DNA from: a virus
Taxonomy: Duplodnaviria > Heunggongvirae > Uroviricota > Caudoviricetes
IMG/VR virus record: IMGVR_UViG_2579779007_000002
Reading direction: 5' to 3' (one strand)
DNA length: 26,985 bases
Below are positions 5,363 to 20,248 of this stretch, in pieces. The notes beneath the pieces were generated by a model that was not told the DNA's origin, ran no database searches, and saw nothing but the letters and a program-made list of their open reading frames with translations. The stretch's first letter is position 1. The number at the start of each line of letters is the position of its first letter. Made by a program: the position numbers and the translations under genes.

Positions 5363-5396
5363 AACACATGCTCCTCCTTTTCCTTTAAATCAGGTT

Positions 5397-5420
5397 AAAA
5401 GGCGGTCTGAACCGCCTTTT
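5397..5420 (-). terminator. intrinsic terminator/attenuator hairpin downstream of major head gene
   Basis: AAAAGGCGGT-ctga-ACCGCCTTTT: GC-rich stem flanked by A and T runs, 8 nt after the T stop codon; works in both orientations. Confidence 0.5.
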
Positions 5421-5428
5421 AATGACGG

Positions 5429-6346: not shown

Positions 6347-7428
6347 TTTTCTTGTTCCTGTTTCATTTTCAGATACTCAGCCTCAGTAATGCCGAGCGCC
6401 TTCACTGCTGCCTGTTCATCAGCAGACAGCACCGCCACCGCCGGTTTTTCCTGCGACGGGATTTTCGCTGTGGTGGTCTGCATGGCAGATAACGCAGCGA
6501 TGGGCTGTTTTTTCTCAAGCTGTGCCGACAGTGCCGCCACGCCAATCTGACCGCCAAGCTGTTCCAGATAGGTACGTTCGCTTTTGAAAATGCGGCCTTC
6601 CTGTTCCGCCTTGTCCAGAACGGCGCTCAGGCTGGCTGTGGTGCTTTGTGCAGTCGCCTGTGCCAGTTCATCACGCAGGGCGTTGTAGCTTTCCACAGGG
6701 ACGTATTTCGTCAGGTCAACGGCGGCTTTCTGTGCCTTTTCCAGTTCGGCGGATAACGACGCCACTTTTCCGGCATCTGTTTCGAGCGCATCAAGCGCAC
6801 TCAGGGCCGCGCTGGCCTGTTCATCGGTGATGTCTGCATTTTCGGGGACAGTCACCCCAAGACGCGCAAGCAGCTTGCGCAGCGTTTCATTCATGGGTTT
6901 GTTCTCCTGTTGAAGGATGTCGGGAAGGTCTGCCGCCAGTGCGGTCAGCTTTTTCATGCCGGTGGCACCGGGGTCATTGGTCAGCGCAGCAAGGCGGATT
7001 TGCAGCACCGCACCGGTGGCGGTGTCATACGGAAAAACTGCAGAGAGATAACCAAATTCGCCGTCATCGATGCGCTGCTGGGCCGCCGCCGTCCAGCGTG
7101 GGTGGATAAATAACCCTTCACCTTCACGCCACTGCATTTCATCGGCGTTAAACCAGCCAGCCGCGACGAGTTGTTCCGGGGGTAATCCTTTGTCCTTACG
7201 TAGCTGGTTATGCTCGTAATCAATCAGCACGTCCTGGTTGAGCACGCGAACGCCTTCAACCAGACGCCCGGCAATATCACCGTCGATGAACCACCCCTGA
7301 CCGCCTGTCACATCAAACGGACGACCATCACGGGCACTGAAATGACCGGCAGGCAATAGCTGGCACCAGCCGTCATCGTCAATGGACAGCGCATTCAGTG
7401 CGGCAATGCCAATCGCGTGTTTTTTCAT
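6343..7428 (-). CDS. I: head maturation protease / scaffold protein (Mu I; scaffold Z expected from internal in-frame start)
   Basis: 361 aa ORF with Ala/Glu/Gln-rich coiled-coil C-terminal half typical of scaffold; position between G and T. Confidence 0.8.
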   Translation of the reverse strand: MKKHAIGIAALNALSIDDDGWCQLLPAGHFSARDGRPFDVTGGQGWFIDGDIAGRLVEGVRVLNQDVLIDYEHNQLRKDKGLPPEQLVAAGWFNADEMQWREGEGLFIHPRWTAAAQQRIDDGEFGYLSAVFPYDTATGAVLQIRLAALTNDPGATGMKKLTALAADLPDILQQENKPMNETLRKLLARLGVTVPENADITDEQASAALSALDALETDAGKVASLSAELEKAQKAAVDLTKYVPVESYNALRDELAQATAQSTTASLSAVLDKAEQEGRIFKSERTYLEQLGGQIGVAALSAQLEKKQPIAALSAMQTTTAKIPSQEKPAVAVLSADEQAAVKALGITEAEYLKMKQEQEK

Positions 7429-7624
7429 GTCCTGCTGCTCATCATGGTTTGTGAGCAGTCAGTTTGCGGGAGGTGCGGGAAAATCTGGGGTTATGCTATT
7501 TGAGTACTGGAGAAAGAAAGTGGAAGGAAGATAAAACGGGATTCATACACCGTTAAATACCGGTTTAAAAATCCCGTGGCGCGTTTTAAAAAATCTGTGC
7601 GGCTGATTTCATGTCTGATTCCGT
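7429..7624 (-). promoter_or_regulatory. G-I intergenic region: expected C-dependent late promoter for I; candidate for the central strong gyrase site
   Basis: 196 bp non-coding gap inside an otherwise tightly packed late region, about 18.4-18.6 kb from the inferred left end; AT-rich dyad around an ACCGGT core at 7553-7570. Confidence 0.4.
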
Positions 7625-8095
7625 TTATTGCCTCAGAGCGGCGCTGACGCGTTTTCTGATGGCATCAAAAATTTCCTGTTCCCCGGTCTTATCCAGCCCC
7701 ATATAAGGACGCGCAGGAACGCCTGCCGGGCGGGGTGCCATATCGGGTGTACCGCCCCACTGATGAATGGCAGCATAAATTTTTGGCGAACCAATCAGAG
7801 CATAATCCTGTCCATAATCGGTGGTAATGCTGCGTGCCAGATCGCCATGCAGGGTAAGAATACTGCCCGGAACAAAACCATGATCCTGACGCCATGCCTG
7901 CCACGAATCGCTCCACGCTTCCCAGCCTTTCCCTGTATCCGGGTCTGCCTGCCGTTCAAATGCCTGTTCCGTGGATGACAGCAGCGCCGCAGCCATCACA
8001 CGGGGAATGGCGCGGTCACGTGTAACGGTTCCCAGTTCATCCAGTGCAAGCTGAATACGTCGCACATCCACGGCAACGTTCATATCAAGACTCAC
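7625..8095 (-). CDS. G: virion morphogenesis protein (Mu G-like)
   Basis: 156 aa ORF, same length and position as Mu G, 4-nt overlap with F. Confidence 0.7.
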   Translation of the reverse strand: MSLDMNVAVDVRRIQLALDELGTVTRDRAIPRVMAAALLSSTEQAFERQADPDTGKGWEAWSDSWQAWRQDHGFVPGSILTLHGDLARSITTDYGQDYALIGSPKIYAAIHQWGGTPDMAPRPAGVPARPYMGLDKTGEQEIFDAIRKRVSAALRQ

Positions 8096-9447: not shown

Positions 9448-10930
9448 GGGTCAGCATGTCGATAAGTTCTGCATCATCCATCTGCGGATATAATGAAGCG
9501 GCTTTGTTCATGGCGGCTTCCGGGCCATCTTTCAGCACAGAAAAAATGACGGGTTTCAGCAGGGGGTCAACCGAACGCTGCCAGTCTTCCGGTGAGACGC
9601 CCATCCGGTCGATATCATCCTCCTGCGGGATATCTTCAGCGGATAATGCGGCCTCTTTCTGCGAACCGTTATCCGGGACAACCGGTTGTACAGTAAACAC
9701 GGCTTCATCACCGACCGGCTGTGGAATATGAAGTTTTTCCTGTATCCAGGAGACCGGAATACGCATTCCCGCCGCCAGTTTCGGAATGGCGTCAGACAGT
9801 GCCGTAATATCACCCGCTTCACTGGTATCAAATACAATGCCCGGCAGGCGGTTAATATCAATGGTGCTGTCACTGTTCAGTGCCAGCAGGGGATAAATCA
9901 GGTCACGGTTAATACTGCGGGCAAGCTGGCCCACATCCGCATTACGGATTTCCCGGCGAACCTCATCATGCACTTCACCCAGCGACCGCGCACCTTTATC
10001 GCCAGCCTCTGTGGTCAGGGTGCCGCCCAGAATGGCTTTTGAAATCGCTTTTTCTGCCCAGCCAATCATCGCCATAAAAGGGTCTGACTGACCATCTGCG
10101 GCGCTCTGAAAATCCAGCGTCATCCCCATCGGAATAATGCCACCGGCACGTCGCCCGATATCCATCACGGCCTGCATCAGCGTGGCTTTCTCGCGGTTCG
10201 TTGAGCCGGTCGGATATTTACCGACGCGCATGGGGAGTCCGTAAATTTCCAGAAACTCTGCAAAATCACGCACGGAATAGTTTTTAAAAATAAAAGGCCA
10301 GATAAGCGTGCGCACAAGGCCATTGGTGCCGACATACCCGGTGCGGGATTTGGCCCGGTGCATAAACCAGCCGAACGGTTGCAGCTCCAGCCCGTGATAA
10401 GACGCATCACGCAGGCGTAATTCGTTCAGATTGTCGGGGTTCGCGCAGAACAGCGCCGGATCGCGATGATGCAGCGCCACCGGCACGCGCATTTTCCCCA
10501 GCCAGCCCCATTCAATCTCCTGCATGGAATAACCCTTGAGAATGGCATCACCGGCATCAAACAGGGCATCTTCAAACCACGCCGCATCATGCAGATATTC
10601 ATTCAGCATGTCGGCGTCTTTTTTCTCCTGTGCGCTGGCATCACGTGCCGGAGCGATGCGCCATTCCAGCGCCTGAATGGCAAGGCGGCGCTTGCTCAGT
10701 TCGGAAAAAAGGTGGGTGTCCTTTTCTTCCATATCAAAGGCCAGGTCAGCCTGTGCTGTCAGATCACCGCGTTCGGCATCACGCAGCATCTGCGCGGCCC
10801 GGTTCGGCGTCACACCACTGGAAGGATGCTCCTGCGTGCGCTTCATGACCATTGCCAGCTCATCGCTGCGGGTCTGCATTTCATCGTCAAAATCAAACGG
10901 CTGCCCGGAAATATCCAGAATACGGCCCAT
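9392..10930 (-). CDS. H: portal protein
   Basis: 512 aa ORF immediately after the large terminase with a 1-nt overlap; size and position of Mu portal. Confidence 0.85.
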   Translation of the reverse strand: MGRILDISGQPFDFDDEMQTRSDELAMVMKRTQEHPSSGVTPNRAAQMLRDAERGDLTAQADLAFDMEEKDTHLFSELSKRRLAIQALEWRIAPARDASAQEKKDADMLNEYLHDAAWFEDALFDAGDAILKGYSMQEIEWGWLGKMRVPVALHHRDPALFCANPDNLNELRLRDASYHGLELQPFGWFMHRAKSRTGYVGTNGLVRTLIWPFIFKNYSVRDFAEFLEIYGLPMRVGKYPTGSTNREKATLMQAVMDIGRRAGGIIPMGMTLDFQSAADGQSDPFMAMIGWAEKAISKAILGGTLTTEAGDKGARSLGEVHDEVRREIRNADVGQLARSINRDLIYPLLALNSDSTIDINRLPGIVFDTSEAGDITALSDAIPKLAAGMRIPVSWIQEKLHIPQPVGDEAVFTVQPVVPDNGSQKEAALSAEDIPQEDDIDRMGVSPEDWQRSVDPLLKPVIFSVLKDGPEAAMNKAASLYPQMDDAELIDMLTRAIFVADIWGRLDAAADH

Positions 10931-14393: not shown

Positions 14394-14569
14394 CAGTGGC
14401 AGTAGTTCGCCATCGGCTGCTGTCTCAGCACATCAGGCCGCAGCTCACGACCGCAACCGGCGCACAATACAGGCGGGTCATACGCCGCCGGACGGGGAAT
14501 ATCACGGGTATTCCCCTGCCAGAGTTCAGCGAGCAGCAGCGCCACCGCCCGGTTCTGGTCTTCGTTCAT
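14375..14569 (-). CDS. TraR/DksA-type C4 zinc-finger protein
   Basis: 64 aa with CAGC-x17-CHWC, matching the CxxC-x17-CxxC spacing of the TraR/DksA zinc finger. Confidence 0.5.
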   Translation of the reverse strand: MNEDQNRAVALLLAELWQGNTRDIPRPAAYDPPVLCAGCGRELRPDVLRQQPMANYCHWCRGAE

Positions 14570-14867
14570 AAATTTCTTTCCTCCGGGTCTCCTGTTCCCG
14601 GACTGATGCCTTGTCGCGGTTGCACTGCCCGAGCGCCATCAGCAGGTCAGCATTCCAGAGCAGGGATGCTCCCCACGTCAGGGGCTGTGGCATGGGCGGA
14701 ACGGGCGTTGCTTCCGTCAGTTCTGCATCAGTTTCGGGCAGGATCACCACCGATGGCACGGGTGCGTTTTTCGAGTTCCCGCAACCTGTCAGCAGCAACG
14801 GCAGGCACAGGACGAGTGCTGCAATTGTCACCGGTAATGGCGGTTGTAATTTTTTCTTTTGCATCAT
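14526..14867 (-). CDS. outer-membrane spanin lipoprotein (o-spanin)
   Basis: Start taken at the MM pair (14867/14864) inside track ORF 14526..14912: MMQKKK + hydrophobic core + lipobox LLTGC. Overlaps the i-spanin gene in another frame. Confidence 0.6.
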   Translation of the reverse strand: MMQKKKLQPPLPVTIAALVLCLPLLLTGCGNSKNAPVPSVVILPETDAELTEATPVPPMPQPLTWGASLLWNADLLMALGQCNRDKASVREQETRRKEIYERRPEPGGGAAAR

Positions 14868-15114
14868 GATGTTCTGTCTCATCTGCCAGCCGTGCGGCAC
14901 GATTTGCGGCACGGATAGCGGAAAATACCTGCATCATCTGTTCCTGACCGTGTAACAACCATTCAGCAGTGTGGCGGGCCTGTTGCTCCGTCTGTAATTT
15001 ACGGCGCAGCGTCTGGTTATCGTGGCGGGTGCTGTCCAGCCTGTGCCACAACACCCCGGACAGAACGGCGGCAAACACGGCTGCCAGAAGTAAACTTTTA
15101 CTGGCGAAGGTCAT
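14728..15114 (-). CDS. inner-membrane spanin (i-spanin)
   Basis: 128 aa with N-terminal transmembrane helix (LLLAAVFAAVLSGVLW) and charged periplasmic helical domain; immediately after endolysin. Confidence 0.6.
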   Translation of the reverse strand: MTFASKSLLLAAVFAAVLSGVLWHRLDSTRHDNQTLRRKLQTEQQARHTAEWLLHGQEQMMQVFSAIRAANRAARLADETEHHDAKEKITTAITGDNCSTRPVPAVAADRLRELEKRTRAIGGDPARN

Positions 15115-15616
15115 CCGCCCCCCTGATATTCCAGATTGCCATTTCCACTTCGCGACGGTTCATCAGTCCTTTCCATTTATGGCCTGCGGCAAACACCCAG
15201 CGGGCCATCTGGTCACGCGCTCCGGCGTAATCACCGGCATTGAGTTTTTTCAGCAGCGTTGATTTACTGAATGCGGTAACACCGGTGTTGAAAATAAACG
15301 TTGCCAGCGCCGTTTTCTGATATGGCGTCAGCGGCACCCTGACAAGACGATCGATTGCCGCATAAACCGGTTTTAAATCACTGTCGAGGAGAGCCATACA
15401 CTCCGCATGGCTGTAACGGCGCATTTCGATATCCGGCCCGGTATGTCCCACACAGACCGTAAGCACACCGGCAATATCGCGGTAAGGCATATAAGCGATA
15501 TTTTCCAGATGGATCAGAGAATGACGGGTCATTTCCTGATAACCACCCACACCGCCACCGGCAATCGTTGCCGCCAGCAGTGCGGCTTTCAGTTTTTTTG
15601 GTATCCCCGCCATCAT
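15098..15616 (-). CDS. lys: endolysin (phage lysozyme, SAR-type N-terminus)
   Basis: 172 aa; N-terminal weakly hydrophobic Gly/Ala-rich segment (KLKAALLAATIAGGGVGG) typical of signal-anchor-release endolysins; first gene after C, as lys in Mu. Confidence 0.85.
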   Translation of the reverse strand: MMAGIPKKLKAALLAATIAGGGVGGYQEMTRHSLIHLENIAYMPYRDIAGVLTVCVGHTGPDIEMRRYSHAECMALLDSDLKPVYAAIDRLVRVPLTPYQKTALATFIFNTGVTAFSKSTLLKKLNAGDYAGARDQMARWVFAAGHKWKGLMNRREVEMAIWNIRGADDLRQ

Positions 15617-15714
15617 GCTTCCCTGAAAAAATGCTCTGATGGCAGTCTAAAAAATCAGATGGCAGGTGCGGGATTATGGTGACAGGAAATAACCGGCAGG
15701 ATGCCGGTTATTTC
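15617..15714 (-). promoter_or_regulatory. late promoter region for lys with perfect 13-bp inverted repeat
   Basis: GAAATAACCGGCA-gga-TGCCGGTTATTTC at 15686-15714 straddles the C stop codon, about 70-100 bp upstream of the lys start. Confidence 0.45.
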
Positions 15715-16130
15715 TGGCTTTCAGGTGAGAACAGATCAGGCTGATGACGTCGTGTATGCAGCTTTCTCTGGCGGGCAATAATCTGGTAGATCTGCGGCTG
15801 GGACAGGCGGTACTGGCGACGCAGTTCTTCCATGTTACGACCATTGAACTGGCAGTAAAGCAAATCGTCGCGTAACGCGGTCAGGATAGTATCGCCGCAG
15901 GGGATGTAAAACTGCCGCCCCCCCAGAAAACAGGACAGGGCAACGGCCTGTTTACGGGCAAGCTCACGGGGATTGCTGACGTTCTGGCGTTTCAGTTCGT
16001 TTTCCAGAACATCAATCAGATCAACCACTGAACGGGGCCAGCGTGATTCCAGTTCCGGGGCCGGGATGTTATCAATATGCCCGATTAACTGGCGAATTGC
16101 CGGATCGTGTTCAAATAAATCATGCTGCAT
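15708..16130 (-). CDS. C: late transcription activator C (Mor/C family)
   Basis: 140 aa, same length as Mu C; shares the FxGRN..EL motif region with the Mor paralogue upstream. Confidence 0.85.
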   Translation of the reverse strand: MQHDLFEHDPAIRQLIGHIDNIPAPELESRWPRSVVDLIDVLENELKRQNVSNPRELARKQAVALSCFLGGRQFYIPCGDTILTALRDDLLYCQFNGRNMEELRRQYRLSQPQIYQIIARQRKLHTRRHQPDLFSPESQK

Positions 16131-16520
16131 ATTTTCCCCCGGTTAACAGACAAAAAGATACACCACGGCACTGATGGTTATCAGAACCACAAGGGCAATC
16201 ACTTTTATCGCATTAATCAGCGTGGACGGCCCGAAACATTCATCACTGAATTTTCTGTACACAATATTTTTCCTTATAACGTTGACAGTGGTGAAGAATT
16301 TCCGGCATATCAACTGACTGCCAGCCTTTCATGTAATAACTGCCGTGGGTGCCATCATGACCGGTATAGTCGCGGGGCGAAGGCCGAGGCCCACCGGCGA
16401 CACGGTGCAAAACCTCCTGACGCAGCCGCTCACGTCTGCCAAGATGAAAGGATGCATTCCAGCCTTTACCCATGATGATTTCCCCCGGTACGGTTATTCA
16501 TCACAGGATATTGAGGACGT
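16131..16520 (-). promoter_or_regulatory. mor-C intergenic region: expected Mor-dependent middle promoter and leader
   Basis: 390 bp without a convincing protein-like ORF, between the early terminator and C. Confidence 0.35.
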
Positions 16521-16545
16521 AAAAAAAGCCGGATTAACCGGCTTT
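16521..16545 (-). terminator. rho-independent terminator of the early transcript
   Basis: Minus-strand AAAGCCGG-uuaau-CCGGCUUU stem-loop followed by a run of 7 U, starting 6 nt after the mor stop codon. Confidence 0.65.
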
Positions 16546-16550
16546 ACTGT

Positions 16551-16940
16551 TTACAGAAGTGAGGGCTGGTACTGGCGGTATTTCAGCCGTCGCATCCGGC
16601 GAATGGCCTTGTAAACCGTATTGAAAGTGACACCATAACGGGTGGTCAGTTCGCTGACGTTGCGACCGTTAAAATCATTCCAGATACGCAAATCCCGAAT
16701 CAGCGAGTCCAGAACCTGACCGCGTGGAATGTAGACCTGACCGCCACCCAGATGCTTACAGATAGCCACAACAATCTCCAGTGAATGGGCAGGATCAACA
16801 CCCAGCCGGGACAACTCCCCGCGCAGTAAATCGTTCAGCTCCGCCAGCAGTGCCGGAAAGCGTGACGCATCCTCTGCGGGATTGTCAAGATGTGCCAGGA
16901 TGGTGTCATCCTGCAAATCACCAAATAAATCTTCCGTCAT
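16551..16940 (-). CDS. mor: middle operon regulator Mor
   Basis: 129 aa, same length as Mu Mor; paralogous to C (shared FNGRN motif). Confidence 0.85.
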   Translation of the reverse strand: MTEDLFGDLQDDTILAHLDNPAEDASRFPALLAELNDLLRGELSRLGVDPAHSLEIVVAICKHLGGGQVYIPRGQVLDSLIRDLRIWNDFNGRNVSELTTRYGVTFNTVYKAIRRMRRLKYRQYQPSLL

Positions 16941-17569
16941 TGTGCCATCCTCCGTGTCTTTCTGGCATGGGCATAAGCCGCCGTCATGGCATCATAGCCG
17001 CGCAGTTCACGCCCGGACGGACTGACCGGCAACGGAAGCCCGTGACGGGAAAAGGCTTCACGAATACAGCGGATATGCCACTGCTTGAGAGTTTCGAGAA
17101 CAATCAACAGGGTGTCGCCATGACACCACGCCAGCGTGGAAACACCCTGTCCGCCATTACGTTTCGCCGTCAGGCGCTGAACATATTTATCCAGCGCCAC
17201 ATCACCGCCATCGGTAATAAAACCGTCTTCTGCCATCTGCTGCCAGACTTTGTATACCTTCTCGCGGGGCGTGACATGCCCCTTAAAGCGGCGACGTGGA
17301 TGTTTATTCAGCTTCTTAAAGCCGCGTTCTTTCATGGCATCGAGCACCTGTTCCAGTTGCGTTACCGTCAGCTCGCGGCAACTGATTTTGCCCGTTTTCT
17401 GCATCAGAAAAGCGCGGTAAGTATCGTCGTCGAGTTGTAGATCACGACGGGCGACATGGATTAATTTAATCAGGGATGTGCGACTCATGATCATACCTTT
17501 AAAAAGCGGTGCTACCACACCGCTTGTATCGCTGAAACACTTTCCGGTCATATCGGCCAGATTAGTCAT
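16937..17569 (-). CDS. gemA: GemA-like early regulatory protein
   Basis: Position immediately upstream of mor; true start probably the internal Met at 17494 or 17488, giving about 183-185 aa. Confidence 0.55.
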   Translation of the reverse strand: MTNLADMTGKCFSDTSGVVAPLFKGMIMSRTSLIKLIHVARRDLQLDDDTYRAFLMQKTGKISCRELTVTQLEQVLDAMKERGFKKLNKHPRRRFKGHVTPREKVYKVWQQMAEDGFITDGGDVALDKYVQRLTAKRNGGQGVSTLAWCHGDTLLIVLETLKQWHIRCIREAFSRHGLPLPVSPSGRELRGYDAMTAAYAHARKTRRMAQ

Positions 17570-17905: not shown

Positions 17906-18574
17906 TTATGCTTCCTGAATACGCTTAAACTCAATTACCCATACCCACGGATTAGACAGCCAGTTATCTTGCCCATAAATACCGCGCCAGATATCACCAA
18001 AACTAACGCGATAAACAGCTTCCGGTGGCGTAATTTTGTACGTCGCCGGAAATGCGCCTTCCGCTTTCGCATCTGCCTCGCTAATGTCATGCAGCCGTTC
18101 CACACGCACGTCGGTTATTCCCAACAGAATGCGCGACGCCCAGCGCGGCATGTGGATAGATGGGCACCACCTGCCATCAAACTTTTCATTCACAGTGCGA
18201 GGTTTCCAGTCAGCATCATCAGGTATTGACCACAGACCGTAATCACCAGGCTTTTGTTCACAACTTGCCCGATAAATCCTTGCTGCCTTCTTCTCATCGC
18301 CATGACAAAGGTTGCCGTTCCAGTCCACACTGCAACCATCCTCATTGCCTAATATTGCCCACGCTTCACGGACCCAGATGCGATCACCAACGTTACCGAA
18401 CGGGCATAAACCATGCTTAGGTGCATCCATAACGTGGGTATAAACACCGTTACGATGGATAACCAGACAGTTATCGTGTCCGACATTTTTTACCGGGCGG
18501 CGTGTTTGCGTCTTTCTTCCTTCGAGAATTGCCCTGACCATATCGTCATTAAAAGCAACGCCACGTTCTTTCAT
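17906..18574 (-). CDS. hypothetical early protein, possible ASCH/PUA-like fold
   Basis: 222 aa; N-terminal FNDDMVRAILEGRKTQTRR resembles the basic Gly-x-Lys-T-x-T-x-R motif of ASCH domains; recognition by eye only. Confidence 0.45.
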   Translation of the reverse strand: MKERGVAFNDDMVRAILEGRKTQTRRPVKNVGHDNCLVIHRNGVYTHVMDAPKHGLCPFGNVGDRIWVREAWAILGNEDGCSVDWNGNLCHGDEKKAARIYRASCEQKPGDYGLWSIPDDADWKPRTVNEKFDGRWCPSIHMPRWASRILLGITDVRVERLHDISEADAKAEGAFPATYKITPPEAVYRVSFGDIWRGIYGQDNWLSNPWVWVIEFKRIQEA

Positions 18575-19723: not shown

Positions 19724-20248
19724 TTAAATACCGGCTTCCTGTTCAAATGGAATAATGGAAAAATCTTCAATTCCCGATTTAACCGTAATTCCGGCAACAC
19801 CTGCGACGGCTTTTGGTTCCAGTAAAATCGCCTCCTTGTTGATTTCCTGCTTCGTGCGAATAAAGCGTTGCAGGCCAAGGCGCTCCAGCGTTTCCATCAC
19901 TGCATCCATACCACGAATACTTACTGATGGTGGACGGACCCGCCACGATACATCACCGGTGACAAGATTCGCCGTCTTCACTTTGCCGCCGTTCGTCAGT
20001 TCGTCGCGGTTCGCTTCACACCATCCCTGAACGCCTTTTGAAAGGGTTTCAATATCGGTTTTAATCGGTGCAATCCGGGCTGCAAATTTCTCCGTAATTT
20101 CCGCGATGGCATCATTCATTTCCGTTTCCAGACGTGATGCTTCGCGCTGTAAATCCCCGATGCGTTTAATATCGGTAATCACCGCATCGCGGTTTTGTGG
20201 CACATAAGCCGCTGCGGCACTTTTGATACGTTTTGCTGGTTTAGCCAT
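19724..20248 (-). CDS. gam: host-nuclease inhibitor Gam (Ku-like DNA end-binding protein)
   Basis: 174 aa; sequence MAKPAKRIKSAAAAYVPQNRDAVITDIKRIGDLQRE... matches my recollection of phage Mu Gam essentially residue for residue. Confidence 0.9.
   Translation of the reverse strand: MAKPAKRIKSAAAAYVPQNRDAVITDIKRIGDLQREASRLETEMNDAIAEITEKFAARIAPIKTDIETLSKGVQGWCEANRDELTNGGKVKTANLVTGDVSWRVRPPSVSIRGMDAVMETLERLGLQRFIRTKQEINKEAILLEPKAVAGVAGITVKSGIEDFSIIPFEQEAGI

What the first reader, a model, noticed from the sequence alone, without database searches (positions are those of the whole stretch)
15686..15714. Perfect 13-bp inverted repeat straddling the stop codon of C
GAAATAACCGGCA-gga-TGCCGGTTATTTC is a perfect palindrome with a 3-nt loop, covering the last codons and stop of C and lying 70-100 bp upstream of the lys start. 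It has no trailing U-run, so it is not a classical terminator. It could be the binding site for the dimeric activator C at the lys promoter, an RNA stability element for the middle transcript, or both.
Basis: seen in the sequence. Interest (0 to 1): 0.4.

Follow-up and report, generated by a model that had tools for sequence, protein, structure and literature searches.

The report
Mu middle-operon terminator hairpin after C
The perfect palindrome at the end of gene C is the ordinary, already annotated hairpin terminator that ends the middle (C) transcript of a Mu-type phage just in front of the lysis-gene promoter; it is not the binding site of the C activator.

Summary
It is a perfect 13+3+13 inverted repeat at 15686-15714, the longest in the window (about 0.003 expected by chance). 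It covers the stop codon of C and lies 70-98 nt before the lys ATG.

The window is a Mu-type phage (99.6% SfMu, 98% Mu/D108) with genes on the minus strand. Read as RNA, the element is a G+C core hairpin (CCGGCA-UCC-UGCCGG) followed at once by UUAUUUCCU. The "missing" U-run is the outer part of the 3' arm, and it pairs with an upstream A-tract. GenBank already annotates this sequence as a terminator in Mu (TransTermHP) and D108 ("rho-independent terminator").

The C-binding site of Plys is the adjacent imperfect dyad at -51..-36. The palindrome spans about -77..-49. Published Plys fragments lacking the 5' arm (-60..+8) or nearly the whole palindrome (-52..+8) still bind C and are activated. 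No related half-sites occur at the equivalent position of PI, PP or Pmom.

In relatives with 45-75% identical C proteins a hairpin sits at the same place with different stem sequences. 98% of cells are paired and 5 of 11 pairs show compensatory changes, with variable arm spacing. This fits an RNA hairpin, not a site for a protein dimer. The feature is known and of low interest.

The parts
15708..16130 (-). Gene C (late-gene activator, 140 aa), last gene of the middle operon. The TAA stop is at 15708-15710.
   Evidence: ORF list. 100% identical to SfMu C and 98.6% to Mu C. Annotated as C in Mu and D108.
15702..15714 (-). 5' arm of the hairpin in the transcript: GAAAUAACCGGCA. It comprises an A-rich outer part (GAAAUAA, which holds the last Lys codon and the UAA stop) and the core CCGGCA.
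15699..15701 (-). Loop (UCC in the transcript).
15686..15698 (-). 3' arm: UGCCGGUUAUUUC. It comprises the core UGCCGG and the first seven bases of the U-rich tract.
15693..15707 (-). G+C-rich core hairpin CCGGCA-UCC-UGCCGG (-8.6 kcal/mol on its own). This is the part that would act as the terminator stem while RNA polymerase sits on the U-tract.
   Evidence: It coincides with the terminator features in Mu (10383-10406) and D108 (10435-10455).
15684..15692 (-). U-rich tract UUAUUUCCU directly after the core stem. The predicted release point is 7-9 nt after the stem (about 15684-15686).
   Evidence: Sequence. Tail score 4.05, against 1.9-3.0 in the relatives. The release point is an inference from canonical terminator geometry.
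15673..15688 (-). C-binding imperfect dyad of Plys (-51..-36, TTCCTGTCACCATAAT). It overlaps the palindrome by 3 bp only. The published C footprint -55..-30 corresponds to 15667-15692.
   Evidence: Positions are inferred. The four annotated Mu late promoters line up with ATAA at -40..-37 and the -10 hexamer at -12..-7. Footprint and mutational data are from PMC2582627. It is the only TTAT-N6-ATAA-like 14-mer upstream of the -10 region in the stretch scanned.
15644..15649 (-). Plys -10 hexamer TAGACT, preceded by a T6 run.
   Evidence: The T6 spacer is noted in PMC4461284. The spacing of 26 nt from the C box to the -10 is constant in all relatives.
15637..15637 (-). Inferred Plys transcription start (+1), equal to Mu 10456.
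   Evidence: Inferred from the -43.5 centre of the C site and the -10 position. Not mapped here.
15098..15616 (-). lys (endolysin), first late gene, transcribed from Plys.

Best explanation
The palindrome is the intrinsic (Rho-independent) terminator of the middle (C) operon of a Mu-type phage. It sits directly against the upstream edge of the C-dependent late promoter Plys.

Proposed mechanism:
1. RNA polymerase coming from Pm transcribes C.
2. The G+C core CCGGCA-UCC-UGCCGG folds while the polymerase sits on UUAUUUCCU, and the transcript is released about 7-9 nt after the stem.
3. In the released RNA the upstream A-tract (GAAAUAA, which happens to hold the last codon and the stop of C) zips onto the U-tract. 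This gives the full 13-bp hairpin with an almost flush 3' end, which should also protect the C mRNA from 3' exonucleases.

The effect is to insulate lys and the late genes from middle-phase transcription, so that they depend on C acting at Plys. The perfect palindrome is the usual A-tract / stem / U-tract design seen as DNA.

Shown here: sequence anatomy, non-randomness, identity with annotated terminators, conservation of the hairpin with compensatory changes, and its position relative to the C site.

Inferred: that termination really occurs here, its efficiency, and the 3'-end protection.
For: - Identity: the window is 99.6% SfMu and 98.4-98.9% Mu/D108.
- Existing annotation: the same bases are annotated 'terminator, predicted by TransTermHP' in Mu AF083977 (10383-10406) and 'rho-independent terminator' in D108 GQ357916 (10435-10455).
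- Anatomy: the core hairpin is -8.6 kcal/mol and the full hairpin -18.3. The tail TTATTTCCTGTC scores 4.05. My own scan that allows inner stems recovers it on the sense strand (-12.5 kcal/mol, tail 3.84), next to the early-operon and capsid-gene terminators.
- Parallel case: the only other long perfect palindrome in the window (5395-5422, TTAAAAGGCGGT-ctga-ACCGCCTTTTAA) is the annotated terminator after the major capsid gene and has the same A-tract/stem/T-tract design.
- Position: it follows the last middle gene and precedes a promoter that needs C (PMC2582627; PMC9239132). A supplementary legend in PMC3820752 describes the long early transcript as running 'from ner to C'.
- Relatives with 45-75% identical C: 10 distinct sequences carry a hairpin between the C stop and the conserved C box. 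98.2% of cells are paired, against 24-50% when partners are slid. 5 of 11 pairs change on both sides, for example CAACC/GGTTG to CAATC/GATTG and GCGCTC/GAGCGC to GCCTTC/GAAGGC to GGCCTC/GAGGCC.
- The distance between the basal arms varies from 3-4 nt to about 20 nt. A hairpin tolerates this; a site for a protein dimer does not.
Against: - No transcript 3' end or in vitro termination was examined here. The paper that characterised the C operon transcript (Stoddard & Howe 1990, PMID 2136735) is not held in the library, so experimental confirmation rests on my recollection only.
- The core stem is short (6-9 bp) and the U-tract is interrupted (UUAUUUCC), so efficiency may be moderate.
- In the 45-75% relatives the tail after the hairpin is U-poor (scores 1.9-3.0). 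The conserved hairpin may therefore not be a canonical terminator everywhere.
- The built-in terminator scan did not list it, because it counts the maximal stem.
- The stop codon lies inside the stem, so a ribosome finishing C could hinder folding (PMC4824070).
Confidence: 0.85

Rival explanations
1. The palindrome is a DNA binding site for the C dimer (or a second, auxiliary C site) that contributes to activation of Plys.
For: - It lies just upstream of Plys.
- It contains AATAACC, the same heptamer as the right half of the Pmom C box.
- The published C footprint reaches -55, that is 7 bp into the 3' arm.
- The -60..+8 fragment is about 23% more active than -52..+8 (PMC2582627).
- The GGTT of the 3' arm keeps a fixed 19-nt distance to the C box in seven lineages.
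Against: - The C site is a 16-bp imperfect dyad centred at -43.5, and the required bases are -52..-34. The palindrome is centred near -63.
- Its ATAA...TTAT motifs are everted and 15 bp apart, and no TTAT-N6-ATAA-like 14-mer lies within it.
- Fragments without the 5' arm (-60..+8), or without almost the whole palindrome (-52..+8), bind C equally well in gel shifts and are activated.
- No half-site lies at the equivalent position of PI, PP or Pmom. The only close matches near PI are codons of gene I (LLPAGHF).
- In relatives the arm spacing varies by about 16 nt and stems change by compensatory substitutions.
Confidence: 0.04
2. The hairpin is only an RNA 3'-end protection or processing element. 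Transcription stops elsewhere (for example by Rho further downstream), exonucleases trim back to the hairpin, and it does not itself terminate.
For: - The full 13-bp stem (-18 kcal/mol) would block 3' exonucleases.
- In the 45-75% relatives the hairpin is conserved while the U-tract is weak. This fits a role that needs the stem but not the U-run.
Against: - In the Mu lineage a U-rich tract follows the core stem directly, and terminator software calls it a terminator.
- Read-through would carry middle transcription straight into lys, 70 nt away, which conflicts with lys being a C-dependent late gene (PMC2582627).
- There is little untranslated RNA for Rho to load on before lys.
Confidence: 0.07
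3. It is a bidirectional terminator that also stops leftward (antisense) transcription entering C from the late region.
For: The element is symmetric. On the plus strand the hairpin is followed by UUUCUGGCUUUC (tail score 4.02, -12.5 kcal/mol core) and folds at -22 kcal/mol.
Against: - All genes around it are on one strand.
- No promoter-like site on the plus strand was found in 14500-17500.
- The symmetry follows automatically from A-tract/U-tract pairing.
Confidence: 0.03
4. It is a chance palindrome with no function.
For: None beyond the general over-representation of CCGGCA and GAAAT k-mers in this genome.
Against: - Expected 0.003 per window; fold z = -5.7.
- Invariant in 26 IMG/VR loci and 41 E. 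coli genomes except for the outermost base.
- A hairpin is conserved with covariation in distant relatives.
Confidence: 0.01

Closest known systems
Terminator annotated after gene C in phage Mu (AF083977: 10383-10406, TransTermHP) and D108 (GQ357916: 10435-10455, 'rho-independent terminator')
   Same: It is the same element. The core hairpin, the loop, the U-tract and the whole Plys region down to lys are identical or differ at single bases. The position overlapping or abutting the C stop is the same.
   Different: In this window (SfMu type) the codons before the final Lys codon read AGC CAG (..SQK) instead of CCC CAA / ACC CCA (..PK). The base that changes the outermost pair from A/C to G-C lies in that Ser-Gln versus Pro stretch. 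The stem is therefore 13 rather than 12 perfect pairs. The SfMu record itself carries no regulatory features.
Mu early-operon terminator inside the middle promoter Pm (hairpin AAAGCCGG-TTAAT-CCGGCTTT + T-run after mor; window 16545..16525, minus strand)
   Same: The architecture is the same: activator gene, stop codon, hairpin terminator within a few nt, then the next-stage activator-dependent promoter. Both hairpins contain GCCGGTTA.
   Different: At Pm the hairpin overlaps most of the activator site. It spans about -48..-24 by my numbering, against the Mor dyad at -51..-36 (PMC4287176, PMC4390567). At Plys the hairpin ends at about -56 (core) to -49 and only touches the C site. The Pm terminator has an uninterrupted T7 run.
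Canonical intrinsic terminators with an A-tract complementary to the U-tract, for example the terminator after the Mu major capsid gene (window 5395-5422)
   Same: A-tract, G+C stem, short loop and U-tract. Seen as DNA it is a long perfect palindrome.
   Different: Here the A-tract is coding sequence and includes the stop codon. The stem is shorter and the loop has only 3 nt.
C-binding sites of Mu late promoters (TTAT-N6-ATAA-like 16-bp dyad centred at -43.5)
   Same: Dyad symmetry, the presence of ATAA/TTAT motifs, and proximity to Plys.
   Different: Wrong centre (-63), wrong half-site orientation and spacing, absent from the other late promoters, and dispensable for C binding and activation.

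Membership tests
Intrinsic (Rho-independent) transcription terminator | A stable G+C-rich RNA stem-loop in the sense transcript. | tested here: met
   The core CCGGCA-UCC-UGCCGG is -8.6 kcal/mol and the full stem -18.3. In context the fold is -20 kcal/mol, z = -5.7.
Intrinsic (Rho-independent) transcription terminator | A U-rich tract immediately 3' of the stem. | tested here: met
UUAUUUCC follows the 6-bp core (5 U of 8; d'Aubenton-Carafa-type tail score 4.05).
Intrinsic (Rho-independent) transcription terminator | Located at the 3' end of a transcription unit, in the sense orientation. | tested here: met
   It directly follows or overlaps the stop of C, the gene encoded by the middle transcript. 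The next gene, lys, has its own C-dependent promoter.
Intrinsic (Rho-independent) transcription terminator | Transcript 3' ends in the U-tract, with factor-independent release in vitro. | not testable with these tools
   No transcript data are available. Stoddard & Howe 1990 is not held.
Intrinsic (Rho-independent) transcription terminator | The structure, rather than the sequence, is conserved in relatives. | tested here: met
   In 10 distinct relatives 98.2% of cells are paired and 5 of 11 pairs show compensatory change, against 24-50% paired in slid controls. Caveats: I derived the structure from these sequences, and their U-tracts are weak.
Binding site of Mor/C-family activator C | A 16-bp imperfect dyad (TTAT-N6-ATAA type) centred at -43.5 relative to the start. 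| tested here: not met
   The palindrome spans about -77..-49 (centre about -63). Its motifs are ATAA-N15-TTAT. The only C-box-like 14-mer upstream of the -10 region starts at -50, outside the palindrome core.
Binding site of Mor/C-family activator C | Needed for C binding and C-dependent activation. | tested here: not met
   This rests on literature, not on an experiment of mine. The -60..+8 fragment is sufficient. The -52..+8 fragment gives 7705 against 9506 units and an equal gel shift. The required bases are -52..-34 (PMC2582627).
Binding site of Mor/C-family activator C | Recurs at the other C-dependent promoters. | tested here: not met
   No half-site with 3 or fewer mismatches lies at the corresponding position of PI (window), or of PI, PP and Pmom in Mu. 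The nearby hits are coding sequence. The overall excess of weak matches is explained by k-mer bias.
Binding site of Mor/C-family activator C | Fixed half-site spacing across homologous sites. | tested here: not met
   The basal arms are 3-4 nt apart in Mu and L056 but about 20 nt apart in L058-L076.
Bidirectional terminator | Convergent transcription meeting at the hairpin. | tested here: not met
   The flanking genes are co-directional and no plus-strand promoter-like site lies nearby. The sequence symmetry alone is met.

The most novel reading that the evidence does not exclude
The terminator is gated by translation of C. In the Mu lineage the UAA stop lies inside the 5' arm, so a ribosome finishing C would cover the arm and loop and prevent the hairpin from forming while RNA polymerase is on the U-tract 20 nt downstream.

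Termination at the middle/late boundary would then depend inversely on how tightly C translation follows transcription. The notoriously weak ribosome-binding site of C would serve to keep the terminator efficient and lys silent. The mor stop lies 5 nt before the early terminator, so the same logic would apply there.

A weaker variant of this reading: the 3' arm (GGTT, at a fixed 19 nt from the C box in seven lineages) doubles as a minor upstream element of Plys.
Probability: 0.15. Interest if true: 0.35.

Novelty: already known. Interest (0 to 1): 0.1.

Why it matters
The finding matters little beyond correct annotation. The element separates the middle phase from the late phase in the Mu transcription cascade, and so keeps the endolysin gene, only 70 nt downstream, off until C has accumulated.

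The useful points from this re-examination are:
1. A perfect palindrome can hide a canonical terminator, because the U-tract pairs with an upstream A-tract.
2. The hairpin position is conserved with covariation in diverged Mu-like phages, directly abutting the C box.
3. Both activator genes (mor and C) end within a few nucleotides of their operon's terminator. This would make a translation-termination coupling test straightforward.

Tried and rejected
There were 31 matches with 3 or fewer mismatches in the window, against 8 expected from dinucleotide shuffles, 8 from permuted patterns and 16 from codon shuffles. This looked like enrichment. However, the matches are scattered evenly, the component k-mers CCGGCA, ACCGG and GAAAT are 2-3x over-represented genome-wide, and none sits at a late-promoter upstream position. 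The single 1-mismatch hit (7339-7351) is the LLPAGHF codons of gene I. Rejected as a motif.
- **Built-in terminator scan.** It did not list the element because it extends the stem maximally. My own permissive scan finds it but is very unspecific (80 candidates). It therefore only shows that the element passes; it does not show that the element is special.
- **Rfam.** There was no family match in 15400-16000; the best hit had E = 9.
- **Close relatives.** The 26 IMG/VR loci and 41 E. coli genomes are invariant in the hairpin, so they carry no covariation information. Only the 45-75% relatives were informative.
- **Relatives with 46% or lower C identity** (Pasteurellaceae, Vibrio, Shewanella, Pseudoalteromonas). 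These have a different arrangement downstream of the activator gene and could not be aligned.
- **Primary literature.** The papers on the C transcript and on late-promoter mapping (PMC208440, PMC209851, PMC311498) and the Mu review (PMC4486318) are not held. The Plys +1 was therefore inferred, not read from a paper.

Full report
**What the window is.** The 2 kb around the finding is 99.6% identical to Shigella phage SfMu, 98.9% to D108 and 98.4% to phage Mu. The genes lie on the minus strand. These are mor (16551..16940), C (15708..16130, 140 aa; 100% identical to SfMu C and 98.6% to Mu C) and lys (15098..15616). All coordinates below are window coordinates, and transcript sense means the minus strand.

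**The observation.** The inverted repeat is real and exact. The arms are 15686-15698 and 15702-15714, 13 nt each, 100% complementary, with 3 nt between them. The TAA stop of C (15708-15710) lies inside the arm that is 5' in the transcript. The lys ATG is 70-98 nt downstream.

It is the longest perfect hairpin-type repeat in the window. Stems of at least 13 bp occurred 0.003 times per dinucleotide-preserving shuffle. The sense RNA folds at -20 kcal/mol, against -6.9 +/- 2.3 for shuffles. In Mu and D108 the outermost pair is A/C, because the codons before the final Lys codon differ (..PK* instead of ..SQK*), so those phages have 12 pairs.

**Why it is a terminator after all.** Parsed as RNA, the element is GAAAUAA | CCGGCA-UCC-UGCCGG | UUAUUUCCU. 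That is an A-rich tract, a G+C core hairpin (-8.6 kcal/mol) and a U-rich tract (5 U of the first 8; tail score 4.05). The outer seven pairs are simply the A-tract pairing with the U-tract.

The only other long perfect palindrome in the window, 5395-5422 (TTAAAAGGCGGT-ctga-ACCGCCTTTTAA), has the same design. It corresponds to the terminator annotated after the major capsid gene of Mu.

The public records already say so. Mu AF083977 carries 'terminator, predicted by TransTermHP' at 10383-10406, which equals TAACCGGCATCCTGCCGGTTATTT. D108 GQ357916 carries 'rho-independent terminator' at 10435-10455. Rfam has nothing here.

**Where the C site is.** The four late promoters annotated in the Mu record are 67-bp segments. 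They line up without gaps on a conserved cCATAAyCCC box (ATAA at segment positions 14-17) and on their -10 hexamers.

Published work states the following (Jiang & Howe 2008, PMC2582627):
- The C site is a 16-bp imperfect dyad centred at -43.5.
- C protects about -30..-55.
- Bases -52..-34 are required.

Combining these, I infer Plys +1 = Mu 10456 = window 15637, the -10 hexamer TAGACT at 15644-15649, and the C dyad at 15673-15688. The palindrome then spans about -77..-49. Its core stem ends at -56, and only its last 3 bp enter the dyad (7 bp enter the footprint).

The same paper reports that Plys -60..+8, which lacks the whole 5' arm, is sufficient for C-dependent activation. It also reports that -52..+8, which lacks nearly the whole palindrome, gives 7705 against 9506 units and an equal gel shift. 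The palindrome is therefore not needed for C binding or activation.

Its ATAA and TTAT motifs are everted and 15 bp apart, whereas the C box is TTAT-N6-ATAA. In the stretch scanned (Mu 10360-10470), the only such 14-mer with 2 or fewer mismatches upstream of the -10 region starts at -50; one further match at -13 overlaps the -10 hexamer itself.

Half-site matches with 3 or fewer mismatches are more frequent in the window than in shuffles. The count is 31, against 8 by dinucleotide shuffle or pattern permutation and 16 by codon shuffle. They are spread evenly, however, and are explained by 2-3-fold over-representation of CCGGCA, ACCGG and GAAAT.

Near PI the only good match (7339-7351, 1 mismatch) is the codons for LLPAGHF inside gene I. 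In Mu there is nothing at the equivalent upstream position of PI, PP or Pmom.

**Relatives.** The 26 IMG/VR loci and 41 of 5426 complete E. coli genomes carry the region at 96% identity or more, with an invariant hairpin. A profile search found Mu-like phages whose C proteins are 45-75% identical.

In all of them the late promoter is recognisable: a C box of the form (A/G)(T/G)AATCCC, exactly 26 nt before a TAnnCT -10 hexamer. A hairpin lies between the C stop and that box.

The hairpin has two parts:
- A basal stem, CAACC(GG)/GGTTG.
- An apical G+C stem whose sequence differs between lineages. Examples are CTGCGCC/GGTGCGG, CTGCGCTC/GAGCGCGG, CTGCCTTC/GAAGGCGG, GCCCTC/GAGGGC and CTGGCCTC/GAGGCCGG.

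Mu and one 75% relative (L056) keep only the basal AACCGG(C)/(G)CCGGTT stem with a short loop.

On an alignment of 10 distinct sequences, 98.2% of cells form standard pairs, against 24-50% when partners are slid by 1-3 columns. 5 of 11 pairs change on both sides, including CAACC/GGTTG to CAATC/GATTG. The structure was derived from these sequences and they are related, so the numbers are supportive rather than a formal test.

The distance between the basal arms varies from 3-4 nt to about 20 nt. This suits a hairpin and not a dimeric DNA-binding protein.

Two caveats apply:
- The tails after the relatives' hairpins are U-poor (scores 1.9-3.0, against 4.05 in Mu). What is conserved may be a weaker terminator or a 3'-end-protecting stem.
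- The GGTT of the 3' arm sits exactly 19 nt before AATCCC in seven lineages (20-26 nt in four others). I read this as the hairpin being packed directly against the fixed-length C site, but a minor promoter role is not excluded.

**Mechanism.** RNA polymerase from Pm transcribes C, the core hairpin forms while the polymerase is on the U-tract, and release occurs about 7-9 nt after the stem (about 15684-15686). This is an inference from canonical geometry.

The function is to insulate lys, 70 nt away, from middle transcription, so that lysis and morphogenesis depend on C. The same layout occurs one step earlier. The mor stop is followed 5 nt later by the hairpin AAAGCCGG-TTAAT-CCGGCTTT plus a T-run (16545..16525), which lies inside Pm and overlaps the Mor dyad.

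**What is not shown.** No transcript ends were examined. The papers that mapped the C transcript and the late starts are not held, so I could not confirm experimental termination or the Plys +1 from the source. A supplementary legend in PMC3820752 describes the early transcript as running 'from ner to C', which is consistent with this reading but indirect.

**Residual novelty.** In the Mu lineage a 4-5-residue C-terminal extension of C (..LFSPESQK against ..LFS-H) brings the stop codon into the hairpin. In relatives the stop lies 12-23 nt upstream of the hairpin.

Li et al. 2015 (PMC4824070) showed that ribosomes almost abolish tR2 termination when the stop codon is a few bp from the terminator, with full efficiency only beyond about 30 bp. 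The RBS of C is described as inefficient (PMC12867686). Translation-gated read-through into lys is therefore conceivable but untested.

**Verdict.** The element is the known, annotated intrinsic terminator of the Mu middle operon. Interest is low.

Noticed in passing
window 16525-16553 (minus strand): The mor stop (16551-16553) is followed 5 nt later by the early-operon terminator hairpin AAAGCCGG-TTAAT-CCGGCTTT plus a T-run. By my numbering of Pm it spans about -48..-24 and overlaps the Mor-binding dyad AGTAA-AGCCGG-TTAAT (-51..-36). One sequence thus serves as both terminator stem and activator site. It shares GCCGGTTA with the hairpin after C.
   Followed up: partly
window 5395-5422: This is the second-longest perfect palindrome (12+4+12), TTAAAAGGCGGT-ctga-ACCGCCTTTTAA. 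It corresponds to the terminator annotated after the major capsid gene T in Mu (20068-20087). It has the same A-tract/stem/T-tract design and so would look bidirectional.
   Followed up: partly
window 15708-15725 (C-terminus of C); loci L056-L076: C in the Mu/D108/SfMu lineage has a 4-5-residue C-terminal extension (..PDLFSPESQK) relative to the 53-75% relatives (..PDLFS-H). This extension is what places the stop codon inside the hairpin. It follows directly after the C-terminal QPDLF motif, which PMC12867686 describes as a clamp-binding motif.
   Followed up: partly
loci L032, L077-L083, L104 (Pasteurellaceae-type Mu-like phages, C identity 38-46%): These have no hairpin next to the activator stop. 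Instead they have a long perfect hairpin plus T-run ending right at the ATG of the downstream lysis gene, for example AAACTCCAGTTATCA...TGATAACTGGAGTTTTTTATG. The 3' arm contains the GGAG Shine-Dalgarno sequence, so the structure could act as a terminator-cum-translation block.
   Followed up: no
window 7536-7631 (minus strand), G-I intergenic region: A strong hairpin with a U-tail lies here (7577..7536, -19 kcal/mol, then UUUAUCUUCC), about 40 nt upstream of the PI C box (GCATAACCCC, 7487-7496). It corresponds to the terminator annotated at Mu 17908-17953. The Mu gyrase cut site (17879/17880) maps to about window 7605. Two weak (3-mismatch) half-site-like 13-mers at 7598-7610 and 7619-7631 look coincidental.
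   Followed up: partly
window about 16143-16550: The mor-C interval is about 370 bp shorter than in Mu. The window, like SfMu, lacks Mu gene 19, and the Mu and D108 matches are split into two pieces.
   Followed up: no
window 17505-17524 (minus strand): A compact hairpin, AGCGGUGUGGUAGCACCGCU, is followed by UUUUAAAGG just upstream of the gemA start. This lies inside the region annotated as the semi-early promoter in Mu. It is not annotated as a terminator there.
   Followed up: no
whole window: 13-mers within 3 mismatches of GAAATAACCGGCA are 2-4x more frequent than in dinucleotide, permutation or codon shuffles. This traces to general over-representation of CCGGCA, ACCGG, CGGCA and GAAAT, not to a regulatory motif.
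   Followed up: yes
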